A DNA stretch of 64,000 bases from the human T2T-CHM13v2.0 reference genome, Homo sapiens (GCF_009914755.1 NC_060929.1), one strand, 5' to 3'. Shown: positions 25,837-31,134, counted from the stretch's first letter. A program made the numbers and translations. Notes: generated by a model not told the origin, from the sequence alone.

Positions 25837-25980
25837 AAAGAAATTCAGAATGATGAAGATTCCCAAACCAATTCTGTTTGGACTGAACATAGCAATGAAG
25901 AAACAAACAAAGATTTCAGGAAAGATGCAGGATTTCTTGAAATGAAAGGTGCCTTAAGAGAGACCATGTATAGAACCCAG
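25837..25980 (+). CDS. SLF1: SLF1 coding exon 5 (KEIQNDEDSQTNSVWTEHSNEETNKDFRKDAGFLEMKGALRETMYRTQ), linker repeat unit
   Basis: catacag|AAA and CAG|gtaaac; 144 nt, phase 0-0, open frame. Confidence 0.93.
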
Positions 25981-26355
25981 GTAAACTTTATAGGCTGAAA
26001 AACATACATTTCTGATGTTTCTTATAGAATTGTTTAAGAGGCAAAGTATGGTGGAAAAAATAGATTTTGGAATCAGAAGGCTGGTGTTTGAACCATGTGT
26101 TTATAGTCTGTGACTTGAACATGTTAGGAAATTGTCCTATGTCTCTGGGAACTCTTGTTGAAGTAATGTTTGTATGCATATAGAAATACACAGAGTTCCT
26201 TATACATAGTGCGTTCTCAACACATGGTAATTACTTATGTAATTACCATGTTTAGGTAACTTACTTATGTTTAGGTAACATCGTGTGTCTTATAAAGCAT
26301 TTTTCTTACCTGAGAGCACAATATATAATTCATGTAAATTCAAGTATTTATATAG

Positions 26356-26484
26356 AATAAAATTTAAAAATACACAAATGAAGTCTATTTTGATTAACTT
26401 GTAAAACAATAAAACAGGAAGGACTTTGAACTTGGAGCAATAAAAAGTACCTCAAGAAAGCACATATGGTATGGTGGCTGTCAA
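26356..26484 (+). pseudogene. Dead copy A of the SLF1 linker repeat exon (pseudo-exon)
   Basis: tatag| start; shares TCTATTTTGATT with coding exon 6; 3' part reads IKSTSRKHIW..Q followed by gtacaacttt as after exon 6; in-frame stops. Confidence 0.75.
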
Positions 26485-27252
26485 GTACAACTTTTCAAAT
26501 AGCAGTAGCAGCCACAAAAAGGACATTATTAGTTCTGCTCTAGAAGAGCTAATGTTCAGTTATGTTCACTTTCATATTGTGTTTTATAAAGCAGTCTATT
26601 TGGTTAATTTATCAAATTATTAAGTTGATAATTATTAGTCTAAACTAAAAGTTTTATGTATAACTAAGAAGAAATTCAAAATAAATTGTTTTTACCATAT
26701 CTGTCAAGTATTTTTGAAAGGTAATTCTAGGAATAATTTGGAACATTTTTTTTTTTTTTTTTGAGACAGAGTCTTGCTGTTTCGCCCAGGCTGGACTGCA
26801 GTGGCACTATCTCGGCTCACTGCAAGCTCTGCCTCCTGGGTTCACGCCATTCTCCTGCCTCAGCCTCCCGAGTAGCTGGGACTACAGGAGCCCGCCATTG
26901 CGCCTGGCTAATTTTTTGTATTTTCTTAGTAGAGACGGGGTTTCACCATGTTAACCAGGATGGTCTCCATCTCCTGACCTCGTGATCCGCCCGCCTCGGC
27001 CTCCCAAAGTGCTGGGATTACATAGTTCCTTAAGAAATTGTATATGGCAAGATTTGCTAGAACTTTCCAAACTTAAAATATTTTTGCATTTTTTTCTGAC
27101 TTTTCCAGTGTATATTTATATTTATGTGACTTAGAAGACTACTTTTTGTAATTTACTATATGTGCATGTTTTAATGAGAAGCTTTTTTGAGTTGATGTGC
27201 CTCTTGTGAAATATACATTGTAAACCACAGTGTATAGCATTTTTACATATAG

Positions 27253-27364
27253 AAAGGAATGTAGAATGAAGATGGAGTTATTAAAATAATTTAGTTTTGA
27301 ATAAACATGGCAAAAGAATAAAATAGAAATTTTGTAAGATAAATGGAAATCATTAAAATACATC
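27253..27364 (+). pseudogene. Dead copy B of the linker repeat exon, followed directly by a Tigger3-type MITE
   Basis: catttttacatatag|AAAGGAATGTAGAATGAAGAT compared with exon 5 catttttacatacatacag|AAAGAAATTCAGAATGATGAAGAT; TAG stop at codon 4. Confidence 0.7.
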
Positions 27365-27366
27365 TA

Positions 27367-27708
27367 CAGTCATGTACACATAATGATGTTTTGGTCAACA
27401 ACGGACCCCATATATGATAGTATCTTATAGTCCCATAAGATAATAATACCATATTTTTACTGTATCCTTTCTATGTTTAGATACACTAATACTCAGCATT
27501 GTGTTGCAGTTGCCTATAGCATTTAATACTGTAACATGTCATAAAGATTTGTAACTTAGGAGCGATAGACCATACCATATAGACTAGGTGTGTAGTAGAC
27601 TATACCATCTAGGTTTGTGTAGGTAGACTCTGATGTTCGCACAATGACGAAATCAACTAACGATGTACTTCTCAAAACATATCCCCATCGTTAAGCAGTG
27701 CATGACTG
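27367..27708. mobile_element. Tigger3/Golem-derived MITE (Tigger3a/MER47-like)
   Basis: TIRs cagtcatg...catgactg, TA target duplication, about 342 bp. Confidence 0.88.
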
Positions 27709-28083
27709 TATATATGTCTTCTTGAGTTCTTTTTAGGACTCAAATTATGTATGTAAAATTCAAGTAGAAATATCCTTTTTTAAAAATAGCTATTTTGGTA
27801 TAATGATTAAACAACATGATTTGTAATACTCATTAATCGGAATTCAGCACATAGGTAAACTAAAGCATATATGTTAACGTACTATAAAGCTTTGTGAACT
27901 GAAAACAATTATGTTCTGCTTTATCTTACATAATTCAGAGGGTTCTTTACTCTATTTAACCTTGTATGTATATTTTACAAAATCTATGTTCCTGGATGGG
28001 TTTTTCTTTTGTGACTTGTGTTGATTGTGTTAAGGCTATATTTAATCCACAGTCTTAACTAAATTATGTTTACAAACACGCAG

Positions 28084-28227: not shown

Positions 28228-29653
28228 GTACAACTTTCCAAATTAAAAATAATTTATTTTTAATATATATAGTGTTTATAGAACAGTTTTCTTTAGCTTT
28301 TAAAAAATATATAAAAATGAGTTATGTATCCAATAGCTAGATTAAGAAATAGAGCATTACCAGTTTTTAAGACCTGCTGTATTATTTTCTTTTTTCTTTT
28401 TTTTTTTTGAGATGGAGTCTTGCTCTGTTACCAGGCTGGAATGCACTGGCACAATCTTAGCTCACTGCAACCTCTGCCTCCTGGGTTCAAGCAATTCTCC
28501 TGCCTCAGCCTCCCAAGTAGCTGGGACTACAGGCACACACCACCACGCCTGGCTAATTTTTGTAATTTTTTCAGTAGAGACTGGGTTTCACCATGTTGGC
28601 CAGGATGGTCTTGATCTCTTGACCTTGTAATCTGCCCACCTCCGCCTCCCAAAGTACTTGGATTACAGGCGTGAGCCACTGCGCCCAGCCTGCTATATCA
28701 TTTTCTAATGCATCCCCTTTCTCCCTCTTACCTAGAAGTAATCTTTGTCTTAGAATTTGTGTTAATTATTTTCTTATTTTTCATTATAGTTTTAACAGCT
28801 GTGTGTGTATCTCTAACTGATATGGTTTAGCTTTGTCTATTCATGAACATTTTATAGTTTATGTTATTTATAGACTTCTTTTGCTAATGTATATAAAATT
28901 TTATTGTTTGACTATGCCACAATTATATCTTTTATCCATTTTACTGTTGATAAGCCTTTGGGCTTCTTTTTATTGGTTTATGTGTTTGATTGTTAAGTTT
29001 TTGCAATTATGAACAATTCTGCTATGAATAATATGAACATTATCTTGTATACCTCTTGGGATACATATTTAGTAATTTCTCTAGCTTAGTTGGTATATTC
29101 CTAGGAATGGAGTTGCTGGGTCATAAGGAGTGTGCATGTTCAACTATACTAGGCAGTGTCCGACTTTTTTCAAAATATTTTACTAATGTACACCTACTCT
29201 GTCAATGGATGAGATTTTCTGTTGTACGTACTTCTTTATTTTTATTTCTATTTTTTGAGATGGAGTTTCACTCTAGTTGCTCAGGCTGGAGTGCAATGGC
29301 GCAATCTCAGCTCGCCACAACCTCCGCCTTCCAGGTTCAAGCGATTCACCTGCCTCAGCCTCCCAAGTAGCTGGGATTACAGGCATGTGCCACCACGCCT
29401 GGCTAATTTTGTATTTTTAGTGGAAATGGGATTTCTCCATGTTGGTCAGGCTGGTCTCTAACTCCCGACCTCAGGTGATCCGCCCGCCTTGGCCTCCCAA
29501 AGTGCAGAGATTACAGGCATGAGCCACCGCGCCCGGCCGTACTTCTTTATTTTTTAATGTGTATGAAAGTATGAAAGTCACTCTTGAGTTTATTTGGATT
29601 TTGTAACATATGTCATTGATGTTGAGATTTAATTGTGGTCTAAATACATGTAG

Positions 29654-29803
29654 AAGGAAATTAAGAAAAAAGATGAAGATATTCAGAGGAGTTATACTTT
29701 GAGGAGAAAACGCAAGAAAGGAAAAGAAAGCAATTGCAAGAAAGGCGTTGAACATGAAAAAATAAAAAGTACCTTAAGAAGGCACATATATAATAGAGAT
29801 CAG
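29654..29803 (+). CDS. SLF1: SLF1 coding exon 7 (KEIKKKDEDIQRSYTLRRKRKKGKESNCKKGVEHEKIKSTLRRHIYNRDQ), linker repeat unit with basic cluster
   Basis: catgtag|AAG and CAG|gtaaag; 150 nt, phase 0-0. Confidence 0.92.
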
Positions 29804-29983
29804 GTAAAGTTTGTAAGCTAAGCTATAGCTTTCTTTTTTATTTTTTGGCTGTTCTCTGATATAATCTAGATATATAATGCTACATGTTTTAAGAAAAAAT
29901 CTTGAGTCAATCTGGTGTAATATTCATAGTTAATATTCCAGTTAACTTTGGTTCACAGTAAATGTACTTGTACATGCATATAC

Positions 29984-30118
29984 AAAGAAATCTGAGTTAA
30001 TAATCAAGGTATTCAGTGAATTTTGTTTTGCCTGAATGTGATGAATAAGAAAAAGAAACTGGAAAAGACTATTTCTTAAAATGAAAAAATCTTTAAAACT
30101 ACATGTGTGTATAGTTGG
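29984..30118 (+). pseudogene. Dead copy C of the linker repeat exon
   Basis: tatac|AAAGAAATC (AG acceptor reads AC); TTTCTTAAAATGAAA versus exon 5 TTTCTTGAAATGAAA; ends LKLHVCIV..|gtaata; TGA at codon 4. Confidence 0.75.
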
Positions 30119-30612
30119 GTAATACTTTCTAATGTAAATTTTATTTTGCTCTTTTGTATAGTACAGACCATTTTTAATGAGATGTCTTGTTTTTAAAATT
30201 GAATGCTTCTTGGGTAAATTTTTTCTGGAGTATGACTTTTTTTTTTTTTAACGATCTAAACCATACCATGGGCTGGATGCGGTGGCTCACACCTGTAATC
30301 CCAGCACTCTGGGAGGCCAACGGGGCAGATTGCTTGAGCTCTGCAGTTGGAGACCAGACTGGGCAACATGGTGAAACCCCATGTCTACCAAAAATACAAA
30401 AAATTAGCTGGCATGGTAGTAGGTGCCTGTGGTTCCAGCTGCTTGGGAGGCTGAAGTGGGAGGATTGCTTGAGCCTCGGAGGCAGAGGTTGCAGTGAGCC
30501 AAGATTGCACCACTGCACTCCAGCCTGGGTGACAAGAGTAAGACCCCATCTCAAAAATAAATACCTAAATACATAAATAAATGCCATATTATGTATATAT
30601 GCATATATTCAG

Positions 30613-30814
30613 AAGAATTTCAGGAAAATGATAAAGGTAAATAAGTAATGAATTTTGTTTTGTATGACCATGGCAACAACAAAAAAGCAGTTCCAGGAAC
30701 AATTTGGAACAGGATAAATGAAAAGTGCCTTAAGAAAGTACATATGTTGGCAGGAGCAAATAAAAAGAGTAAAAAGAAAAAAAAAAAAAAAGAAAGTACA
30801 TATGTAAATATCAG
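30613..30814 (+). pseudogene. Dead copy D of the linker repeat exon, containing a retroposed micro-insertion
   Basis: ttcag|AAGAATTTCAGGAAAATGAT; 3' end MKSALRKYICKYQ after removing the insert; donor reads CAG|ttaatt. Confidence 0.8.
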
Positions 30815-31011
30815 TTAATTCTTTACAAATTGAAATGTTTGCTTTTTGAGCTTTTTCTTTCATTGTGTAATCTTGATATATGATTGTGAGGATCTTTGCT
30901 GTGGTTAACATGGTATGAATGTGTTCCTCTTATATTGTCCTTTGTGATATCATCTGTGTTGACACTGTCTTTAGTACATTTTCTAAAGTCATTTTACTTT
31001 GCTATATGCAG

Positions 31012-31134
31012 AAAGAAATGAAGAATTCTATTTTTGCTGAATATGCCAAAGAATCAAAAGCCATGGCTATTAAGACAGATGTGGATGTTGTTGAAATAAA
31101 AAATACCTTAAGGAAGCACATATATAGAGCTCAG
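31012..31134 (+). CDS. SLF1: SLF1 coding exon 8 (KEMKNSIFAEYAKESKAMAIKTDVDVVEIKNTLRKHIYRAQ), linker repeat unit
   Basis: tatgcag|AAA and CAG|gtaaaa; 123 nt, phase 0-0. Confidence 0.93.

What the first reader, a model, noticed from the sequence alone, without database searches (positions are those of the whole stretch)
25837..31134. Hidden 8-unit exon-duplication array in the SLF1 linker: 4 live exons interleaved with 4 dead copies
Seen: coding exons 5-8 are all phase 0-0 and 123-150 nt. All begin KE(I/M)(Q/K) and end with a shared motif: MKGALRETMYRTQ, MRNTFGSHTYENQ, IKSTLRRHIYNRDQ, IKNTLRKHIYRAQ. Four more degenerate copies lie in the introns at 26356, 27253, 29984 and 30613, giving the order live-dead-dead-live-live-dead-dead-live. 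Several units share an internal motif: exon 5 aattctgtttggactgaacatagcaa, exon 8 aattctatttttgctgaatatgccaa, copy B aatttagttttgaataaacatggcaa, copy D aattttgttttgtatgaccatggcaa. Established: SLF1 links RAD18 (via its BRCTs) to SLF2-SMC5/6. Inference: the linker between the BRCTs and the helical/ankyrin part is a modular repeat evolving by exon birth and death, so linker length or the number of binding motifs may differ between lineages. I know of no description of this repeat but cannot search the literature.
Basis: partly seen in the sequence, partly recalled or inferred. Interest (0 to 1): 0.88.

Follow-up and report, generated by a model that had tools for sequence, protein, structure and literature searches.

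The report
Duplicated-exon array in SLF1 linker
The flexible middle of the human DNA-repair protein SLF1 was built in early mammals by copying one small exon at least nine times; four copies are still used and five lie decayed in the introns, an ordinary kind of gene evolution but an undescribed case that points to a conserved helix.

Summary
Coding exons 5-8 of SLF1 (aa 199-385) are four homologous phase 0-0 exons.

All five intronic copies are dead, through early stops, lost splice sites or insertions.

Listed eutherian proteins carry at most four units, always in the same order. Listed sauropsid and amphibian SLF1 proteins carry at most one. The array therefore arose on the mammalian stem, before the eutherian radiation. 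No marsupial or monotreme protein was retrieved.

AlphaFold2 leaves repeats 1-3 unstructured. Only the repeat-4 copy of the conserved ...K.xL(R/I)KH(I/M)Y.AQ motif is a confident helix. It lies in the 336-410 stretch that a published study links to SLF2 binding.

This is a new member of a known kind: tandem exon duplication with pseudoexon relics. The repeat is not mentioned in the SLF1 texts and listings I searched. Interest is moderate.

The parts
25837..25980 (+). Live unit 1: coding exon 5, aa 199-246, phase 0-0, 144 nt
   Evidence: Translation; hub annotation; profile hit of 163 bits. Its N-terminal half is the best match to the single sauropsid unit (21.0 bits).
26356..26484 (+). Dead unit A. 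AG acceptor and GT donor are kept. Stop at codon 4 and stops in all frames. Motif relic IKSTSRKHIW.
   Evidence: 35.2 bits, E 3.3e-10 with the profile built from exons only; splice sites; frames.
26668..27056 (+). It is split by an insert at 26746-27022, its donor GT has become CT, and it has internal deletions.
   Evidence: Two partial hits on either side of the insert. With the insert cut out, one hit of 21.4 bits, E 3.5e-7. Boundaries.
26746..27022 (-). Young interspersed-repeat insert (Alu-like; the family name is from recall) inside unit E
   Evidence: 87% identical over 284 nt, in reverse orientation, to the hub-masked repeat at 1292-1613. A poly-T run lies at its 5' side.
27253..27366 (+). 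Dead unit B. AG acceptor kept, stop at codon 4. Its 3' third is missing beyond an inserted element.
   Evidence: 16.2 bits, E 2.2e-4 with the exon-only profile. The hit covers model positions 5-137 only, even with the insert cut out. Details.
27367..27708 (.). Inserted element with terminal inverted repeats (CAGTCATGTAC / CAGTCATGCAC) and TA on both sides. It truncates unit B. It looks like a Tc1/mariner-type MITE (the family is from recall).
28084..28227 (+). Live unit 2: coding exon 6, aa 247-294, phase 0-0, 144 nt
   Evidence: hub annotation
29654..29803 (+). Live unit 3: coding exon 7, aa 295-344, phase 0-0, 150 nt, with a K/R-rich middle
   Evidence: hub annotation
29984..30118 (+). Dead unit C. 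The acceptor AG has become AC, the GT donor is kept, and there is a stop at codon 4.
   Evidence: 15.5 bits, E 3.6e-4. A 327-nt alignment to the exon-5 unit that includes flanks. Details.
30612..30814 (+). Dead unit D. The donor GT has become TT, there is a stop at codon 12, and it carries an A-rich insert of about 45 nt (30748-30792) flanked by a direct repeat. Motif relic MKSALRKYIC.
   Evidence: 39.9 bits, E 1.2e-11. The 3' piece at 30790-30848 scores 23.6 bits. Details.
31012..31134 (+). Live unit 4: coding exon 8, aa 345-385, phase 0-0, 123 nt. It carries the best-conserved copy of the motif (EIKNTLRKHIYRAQ).
   Evidence: Motif columns are 0.9-1.0 conserved in 31 eutherians. Best match to the sauropsid unit (21.6 bits). 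AF2 block pLDDT of 76 and 84 for residues 371-390.
25237..25329 (+). Possible tenth relic upstream of exon 5. Not established.
   Evidence: 6.5-7.0 bits, E 0.009-0.16, against shuffle maxima of 6.7-7.1 bits. No HSP in the self-comparison.
38680..38733 (+). Coding exon 9 (AVRYNC...). Not a repeat unit. The repeat-4 helix runs into it.
   Evidence: AF2 helix H348-392 in P0018 numbering. The same 'AQ-A...' junction follows the single unit in sauropsids and amphibians.

Best explanation
This is the fossil record of a burst of tandem genomic duplications of a segment of roughly 0.3-0.5 kb (my estimate from unit starts minus the inserts) that carried the single linker exon of SLF1.

The ancestral exon. 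In tetrapods outside mammals the exon exists once. It encodes about 45 aa: an acidic spacer (KEIQN.ED...) followed by a conserved motif (E-M-K-N-A-L/V-I-K-H-M/I-Y-F-A-Q). The motif runs straight into the next exon and the Nse5-like solenoid.

The amplification. On the mammalian stem the segment was amplified to at least nine head-to-tail copies. This happened after the split from sauropsids and before the eutherian radiation. The exon is phase 0-0 and a multiple of three, so every copy that kept its splice sites was spliced in frame. Four copies were kept in all eutherian groups sampled. Five lost splice sites, acquired stops or were hit by insertions, and became pseudoexons.

The result for the protein. 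The tether between the RAD18-binding tandem BRCT (aa 1-199) and the SLF2-binding solenoid grew by three units, to 187 aa of repeat sequence. The motif is now present four times.

What the copies do now (inferred). Only the last copy, in the ancestral position, still acts as the helix that sits on the solenoid next to SLF2. Copies 1-3 are mainly disordered spacer with weakened motif copies. Because each repeat exon can be skipped in frame, isoforms with two to four units are possible.

Shown: homology, copy number, decay, lineage distribution and predicted disorder. Inferred: unequal crossing-over as the mechanism, the timing inside mammals, and the helix/SLF2 role.
For: Homology and tandem order:
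- The exon-only profile finds A, B, C and D. The 8-unit profile finds E. Shuffle and reversal controls reach at most 7.1 bits.
- In the masked self-comparison, 19 of 21 off-diagonal HSPs join two units. Several run well into the flanking introns: ex6-ex8 345 nt, ex5-C 327 nt, ex7-ex8 334 nt.
- Acceptor and donor contexts align across units.

Decay: stops in every frame of A, B, C and D and of the 3' piece of E; the short 5' piece of E (28 codons) has one stop-free frame. Lost AG or GT and inserts are shown.

Not a dispersed family: whole-genome searches with the exon-5 unit DNA and with the repeat-4 peptide return only the locus itself.

Burst-like origin: the tree of the nine DNA units is star-like. 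No node exceeds 69% support, and internal branches make up 11% of the tree length.

Lineage pattern:
- Eutherian proteins have at most four units.
- r1, r2, r3 and r4 each form a clade across 8 eutherians, with support 100, 97, 99 and 89. All four therefore predate the eutherian crown. Afrotherian proteins (P0047 among the 8) and a xenarthran (P0374) carry the repeats.
- 64 of 96 sauropsid proteins have one unit and none has two. Amphibians show one.
- A profile built from sauropsid units alone recognises all four human repeats at 13.2-21.6 bits.

State of the protein:
- AF2 on a 95-row alignment gives pLDDT below 50 for residues 199-366, but block means of 76 and 84 for 371-390, within helix H348-392.
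- Mean column identity among 31 eutherians is 0.63-0.71 in the repeats, against 0.86-0.95 in the folded domains. The repeat-4 motif columns reach 0.9-1.0.

Published context (passages seen):
- tBRCT is residues 1-199 (PMC10598736).
- The solenoid construct starts at residue 410. An N-terminal alpha-helix of a 336-1058 construct is modelled against SLF2, and SLF2-CTD pulled down more SLF1(336) than SLF1(410) (PMC9708086).
Against: - No marsupial or monotreme SLF1 appeared in any of the three name-bearing protein searches. The event is therefore bracketed only between the amniote ancestor and the eutherian crown.
- The unit trees cannot order the duplications.
- 32 of 96 sauropsid proteins gave no significant unit. 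Most frog proteins match only by eye.
- The motif could not be detected statistically in 21 more distant, fish-like representatives. 'Ancient' therefore means tetrapod-wide only.
- Whether the five dead copies were ever spliced cannot be told from one genome.
- In the second AF2 model, of a truncated 555-aa rodent-type protein, the repeat-4 helix reaches block pLDDT of only 41-55. Its confidence in the full-length model may depend on the complete solenoid.
- The tool gives no contacts, so docking of the helix is not shown.
- Equating this helix with the paper's 'N-terminal alpha-helix' is my inference. The passages give no residue numbers for it.
- Low pLDDT is not proof of disorder.
Confidence: 0.8

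Rival explanations
1. The intronic copies are not inert. They act as cryptic or poison exons, whose inclusion would bring in a stop codon and send the mRNA to decay. Alternatively they act as decoy splice sites that tune inclusion of the neighbouring repeat exons.
For: Copy A keeps both AG and GT, C keeps GT, and B and D keep AG. Every live repeat exon is missing from some predicted eutherian isoform: 62 of 122 proteins lack at least one repeat. Splicing in this region is therefore flexible. Copy D is unusually well preserved (39.9 bits; terminal branch 0.12).
Against: None of the 10 RefSeq transcripts in the hub table uses any of these copies. No database protein has a fifth unit. E, B and D are broken by insertions. 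No expression or cross-species conservation data could be examined here.
Confidence: 0.1
2. The multi-unit array is ancestral to amniotes or tetrapods, and sauropsids and amphibians each reduced it to one unit.
For: The DNA units are very diverged (44-63% identity; terminal branches 0.12-0.73 substitutions per site). In the protein tree the outgroup units join r4 rather than sitting outside all four repeats (support 80, branch length 0.016).
Against: It needs at least two independent reductions against one gain. None of 96 sauropsid proteins has two units, and no amphibian protein shows more than one. The r4 affinity rests on the shared C-terminal motif and on a near-zero branch.
Confidence: 0.07
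3. The similarity is chance or compositional (AT-rich, A/K-rich sequence), or the copies belong to a dispersed repeat that was exonised.
For: The region is AT-rich, the unit identities are modest (44-63%), and Tandem Repeats Finder does not report the array.
Against: Scores are 15.5-39.9 bits against at most 7.0 bits in 1.12 Mb of composition-matched shuffles. All copies lie on one strand, in register, and only inside 26.3-31.2 kb of the 64 kb window. An independent sauropsid profile recognises the human repeats. There are no other genomic copies at the sensitivity.
Confidence: 0.02

Closest known systems
Tandem exon duplication with unannotated or degenerate intronic copies. Sources: the genome-wide surveys in PMC9013439 (abstract, methods and passages read) and Exonize, PMC12343006 (passages read). 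The 2002 survey of common exon duplications is known to me only as cited in PMC9013439.
   Same: Neighbouring exons of one gene are homologous, lie on the same strand, and share length class and phase. Extra homologous copies sit in the introns as pseudoexons. Exonize reports full-exon duplications in more than 900 human genes.
   Different: SLF1/ANKRD32 is not named in the main text of either paper (0 occurrences). This array is old and diverged (about 60-67% DNA identity between units), is broken up by later insertions, and has more dead copies than live ones.
Mutually exclusive exon clusters that arose by tandem exon duplication (examples such as DSCAM1 are named in PMC9013439)
   Same: Origin by tandem duplication of an exon together with its flanking intron.
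   Different: Here the copies are used together. The reference transcript and 60 of 122 eutherian proteins contain all four (hub table). The duplication therefore lengthens the protein instead of offering alternatives.
The N-terminal helix in front of the Nse5-like solenoid of SLF1 and SIMC1, PMC9708086 (passages read)
   Same: The repeat-4 motif lies at about residues 366-392, inside the 336-410 extension. In that paper this extension is modelled on the solenoid beside SLF2 and raised SLF2 pull-down.
   Different: In the passages I saw, the paper does not note that this helix is the last of four homologous exon-encoded units, or that the unit is single in other tetrapods. The identity of 'their' helix with the motif is inferred here from AF2.
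Repeat proteins built by exon amplification, such as nebulin, the apolipoprotein(a) kringle IV-2 repeats and the NBPF Olduvai domains (all from recall, not checked here)
   Same: In-frame symmetric exons multiplied in tandem, giving lineage-specific repeat numbers.
   Different: Those repeats are folded domains, often vary in copy number within species, and are young. The SLF1 units are largely unstructured, fixed at four across the eutherians sampled, and old.

Membership tests
Tandem exon duplication | Neighbouring exons of one gene are significantly similar in sequence | tested here: met
   All six live-exon pairs have E from 4e-20 to 4.5e-11 in the masked self-comparison. Protein alignment.
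Tandem exon duplication | Copies lie head to tail on the same strand within the gene | tested here: met
   All nine units are on the + strand, in register, between 25.8 and 31.2 kb.
Tandem exon duplication | Copies share phase and length class, so each can be included in frame | tested here: met
   Lengths are 144, 144, 150 and 123 nt, all phase 0-0 (hub table).
Tandem exon duplication | Similarity extends into splice sites and flanking intron, showing a genomic duplication rather than one at the cDNA level | tested here: met
   Alignments of 327-345 nt run beyond the exons. Acceptor and donor contexts are aligned.
Degenerate (pseudo) exon copies in introns | The intronic match to an exon is above chance, is not an interspersed repeat, and is disabled as coding sequence | tested here: met
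   15.5-39.9 bits against a shuffle maximum of 7.0 bits. Only the locus itself is found genome-wide. Stops and lost splice sites are shown. Caveat: no repeat-family library was on hand.
Mutually exclusive exon cluster | One and only one exon of the cluster is included in a transcript | tested here: not met
   The selected RefSeq transcript contains all four (hub table). 60 of 122 eutherian proteins have r1-r2-r3-r4.
Curated protein repeat or domain family (Pfam) | Match to a curated model over aa 199-385 | tested here: not met
   Pfam matches cover only the BRCT and ankyrin parts of P0018. The four repeat peptides give no family below E 0.5.
SLF2-contacting N-terminal helix of the SLF1 Nse5-like domain (PMC9708086) | The helix lies within residues 336-410, directly in front of the solenoid | tested here: met
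   AF2 helix H348-392, confident over about residues 367-393, followed by the solenoid from 412. In the truncated model it is a helix of low confidence.
SLF2-contacting N-terminal helix of the SLF1 Nse5-like domain (PMC9708086) | Physical contact with SLF2 or the solenoid | not testable with these tools

The most novel reading that the evidence does not exclude
The duplicated unit carries a functional helix that contacts SLF2 or the solenoid. Eutherian SLF1 therefore holds four competing copies of it on one flexible tether. If different copies can dock, or if repeat exons are skipped, the reach between RAD18-bound BRCTs and the SMC5/6 loader would be adjustable. That would be a lineage-specific change in how SMC5/6 is delivered to damaged forks. 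The intronic copy A, with both splice sites intact, might add a poison-exon switch.
Probability: 0.15. Interest if true: 0.6.

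Novelty: new member of a known kind. Interest (0 to 1): 0.42.

Why it matters
The 200-410 stretch of SLF1 is treated in the structural papers I read as an uncharacterised flexible region. 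PMC11551741, PMC10598736 and PMC9708086 address the BRCTs, the ankyrin domain and the solenoid.

This work shows three things about that stretch:
- It consists almost entirely of four copies of one ancient exon.
- The exon's conserved core is a helix motif that is single in other tetrapods.
- The last copy coincides with the segment that improved SLF2 pull-down.

That gives experimenters defined units to delete, swap or mutate. It also gives a natural one-unit versus four-unit comparison, for example chicken or crocodile against mammal. As genome biology it is a clean worked example of exon birth and death, in which the dead copies are still readable.

Tried and rejected
- Tandem Repeats Finder on 24000-37000 does not see the array.
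- A tenth unit at 25237-25329 could not be raised above shuffle level. No unit was found between exons 6 and 7 after cutting out the inserts.
- A motif profile found nothing at the expected place in 21 distant, fish-like representatives. The by-eye resemblance there (L-E-N-K-L-K...) is therefore not claimed.
- The extra peptides in the cattle, camel and cat isoforms are not revived dead copies.
- The trees of the units gave no duplication order.
- Marsupial and monotreme orthologs were not among the 120 rows listed by any of the three protein searches. The representative search was crowded by ankyrin proteins.
- The own-genome search does not take an alignment. A single peptide was used instead.
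I could not check whether the bulk tables or track hubs of PMC9013439 or PMC12343006 list SLF1/ANKRD32.
- A composition and hydrophobic-moment calculation on the four repeats was not run (see steps_to_tell).
- Complex prediction was not used, because no SLF2 or RAD18 sequence was available to it.

Full report
**Observation**

The four exons at 25837-25980, 28084-28227, 29654-29803 and 31012-31134 translate without stops into 48, 48, 50 and 41 residues. The start codon is at 5194, and the four upstream coding exons sum to 594 nt. The repeats are therefore residues 199-385, and every one is phase 0-0.

**The intronic copies are real**

An nhmmer profile built only from the four exons plus 25 nt of flank finds four further matches on the + strand as the best non-self hits of the whole 64 kb window:
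- D, 30596-30747: 39.9 bits
- A, 26350-26499: 35.2 bits
- B, 27241-27335: 16.2 bits
- C, 29969-30095: 15.5 bits

The next hit has E 1.9. Two hundred local dinucleotide shuffles of the region (1.12 Mb) reach at most 7.0 bits, and the reversed window reaches 6.2 bits.

**A ninth copy**

A profile of all eight units picks up two partial matches on either side of a 277-nt insert. With the insert cut out they fuse into one hit of 21.4 bits, E 3.5e-7. This is unit E, at 26668-27056. The insert is 87% identical to another masked interspersed repeat of the window.

A possible tenth relic at 25237-25329 never exceeds the shuffle maxima. I do not count it.

The order is live, dead, dead, dead, live, live, dead, dead, live.

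**Anatomy of the dead copies**

| Copy | Acceptor | Donor | Other damage |
|---|---|---|---|
| A | AG kept | GT kept | stop at codon 4 |
| E | not clear | GT to CT | internal deletions and the interspersed-repeat insert |
| B | AG kept | missing | stop at codon 4; ends at an inserted element with inverted terminal repeats and TA flanks |
| C | AG to AC | GT kept | stop at codon 4 |
| D | AG kept | GT to TT | stop at codon 12; short A-rich insert flanked by a direct repeat |

Relics of the peptide motif are still readable in some frame: IKSTSRKHIW in A, MKSALRKYIC in D and MKKSLKLHVC in C.

**A genomic tandem duplication**

In a repeat-masked, low-stringency self-comparison of 25000-31500, 19 of 21 off-diagonal alignments join two units. 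Several run far past the exons: ex6-ex8 345 nt, ex5-C 327 nt, ex7-ex8 334 nt.

Whole-genome searches with the exon-5 unit and with the repeat-4 peptide return only the locus itself. Within the limits of those searches, the unit is not a dispersed element.

Pairwise identities are 44-63%. The maximum-likelihood tree of the nine DNA units is star-like: no node exceeds 69% support, terminal branches are 0.12-0.73 substitutions per site, and internal branches make up 11% of the tree length. That fits an old burst but gives no order of events. Tandem Repeats Finder does not report the array, so 'hidden' is a fair word.

**Lineage distribution**

The protein database holds vertebrate SLF1.

- Eutherians. 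Of the 120 proteins listed, 114 contain repeats: 49 have four, 46 three, 17 two and 2 one. None has more than four. With repeat-specific profiles on 122 eutherian proteins of at least 800 aa, 60 are r1-r2-r3-r4. The rest lack one or more units, mainly r2-r3-r4 (22), r1-r2-r4 (15) and r1-r4 (8). The order never changes and there is never a fifth unit. Many of these entries are predicted isoforms.
- Orthology of the four units. Each of r1 to r4 forms its own clade across eight eutherians, with support 100, 97, 99 and 89. Afrotherian and xenarthran proteins carry the repeats. The four live units were therefore already in place in the eutherian ancestor.
- Sauropsids. Crocodilians, turtles, birds, squamates and tuatara have proteins that are mostly about 820-1030 aa. 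64 of 96 have exactly one unit, 32 have none at i-E<0.01, and none has two.
- Amphibians. Frogs, caecilians and salamanders show one unit ending in motifs such as ELKSSIWKRFC.AQ or EVKSALKHHICLAQ. It is significant in 7 of 33 and visible by eye in most others.
- Independent check. A profile built from sauropsid units alone recognises all four human repeats at 21.6, 21.0, 14.3 and 13.2 bits.
- Limits. In 21 more distant representatives the motif could not be detected. No marsupial or monotreme protein was listed in any search, so the burst is bracketed only between the amniote ancestor and the eutherian crown.

**State of the protein**

No Pfam model covers the repeats. The PDB copy holds only SLF1 1-199 and 803-935.

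Among 31 full-length eutherian proteins, mean column identity is 0.63-0.71 in the repeats, against 0.86-0.95 in the folded domains. The repeat-4 motif columns are 0.9-1.0 conserved.

AlphaFold2 on a 95-row alignment (mean pLDDT 69.9) gives pLDDT below 50 for residues 199-366. For 371-390 the block means are 76 and 84, inside helix H348-392. That helix is the repeat-4 motif running into exon 9. In a second model, of a truncated 555-aa rodent-type protein, the same helix is present but reaches block pLDDT of only 41-55. Its confidence may therefore depend on the complete solenoid.

**Link to published work** (passages read, not whole papers)

- PMC10598736 uses residues 1-199 as the tandem BRCT.
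- PMC9708086 starts its solenoid construct at residue 410. [quoted passage not shown]
- The only confident helix in 336-410 of my model is the repeat-4 motif. I therefore infer that the conserved core of the duplicated exon is that helix. This is inference, because the passages give no residue numbers.

**Interpretation**

One ancestral linker exon, made of a spacer plus a helix motif, was amplified by tandem genomic duplication on the mammalian stem. Symmetric phase let surviving copies splice in frame. Four were fixed and five decayed.

Repeat 4 keeps the ancestral position and, I infer, the ancestral helix role. Repeats 1-3 lengthen a disordered tether and carry weakened motif copies.

The rivals rank lower, for the reasons given in their entries: regulatory pseudoexons, an ancestral array reduced twice, and chance or a dispersed repeat.

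**Novelty**

The kind is well known. PMC9013439 and PMC12343006 describe genome-wide catalogues of duplicated exons and degenerate intronic copies, and Exonize reports more than 900 human genes with a full-exon duplication.

The case itself was not found in print:
- 'SLF1' plus 'exon duplication' returned 0 papers.
- ANKRD32 plus repeat plus exon returned 16 papers, none on this topic by title or abstract start.
- SLF1 plus SMC5 plus 'tandem repeats' returned 5 papers, none on this topic by title.
- BRCTx returned 7 papers.
- Passages matching 'linker', 'repeat' or 'disordered' in the three SLF1 structural papers describe no linker repeat.

Supplementary tables could not be opened and may list the locus in bulk.

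Noticed in passing
window 35215-35561: A perfect tandem repeat of 114 bp x 3.0 copies (100% matches, TRF score 694) in the intron between coding exons 8 and 9. It is a candidate young minisatellite with variable copy number.
   Followed up: no
window 30748-30792 (inside dead copy D): An A-rich insert of about 45 nt bracketed by the direct repeat AGAAAGTACATATGT. It looks like a very short retroposed fragment with a target-site duplication.
   Followed up: partly
window 27367-27708: A 342-nt element with 11-nt terminal inverted repeats (10 of 11 matching) and TA on both sides, single copy within the window. It truncates dead copy B.
   Followed up: partly
P0126 (Bos indicus isoform X1), between repeats 1 and 2; also P0121 (camel) and P0100 (cat): Lineage-specific peptide inserts in the linker of some predicted isoforms. 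The cattle one (26 aa, GFPGGASGKEP...) looks like a ruminant SINE exonisation (from recall). None matches the human dead copies.
   Followed up: partly
eutherian SLF1 proteins: Every one of the four repeat exons is missing from some database isoform. 62 of 122 proteins lack at least one repeat, most often r1 (22) or r3 (15). In-frame skipping of repeat exons is therefore widely predicted.
   Followed up: partly
window 29654-29803 (repeat 3): The middle of repeat 3 is a dense K/R run (RRKRKKGKE in human). It resembles a nuclear localisation signal, and the other three repeats and the sauropsid unit lack it. PMC9708086 added an NLS to its 336-1058 constructs (appendix passage), which fits an NLS lying upstream of residue 336.
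   Followed up: no
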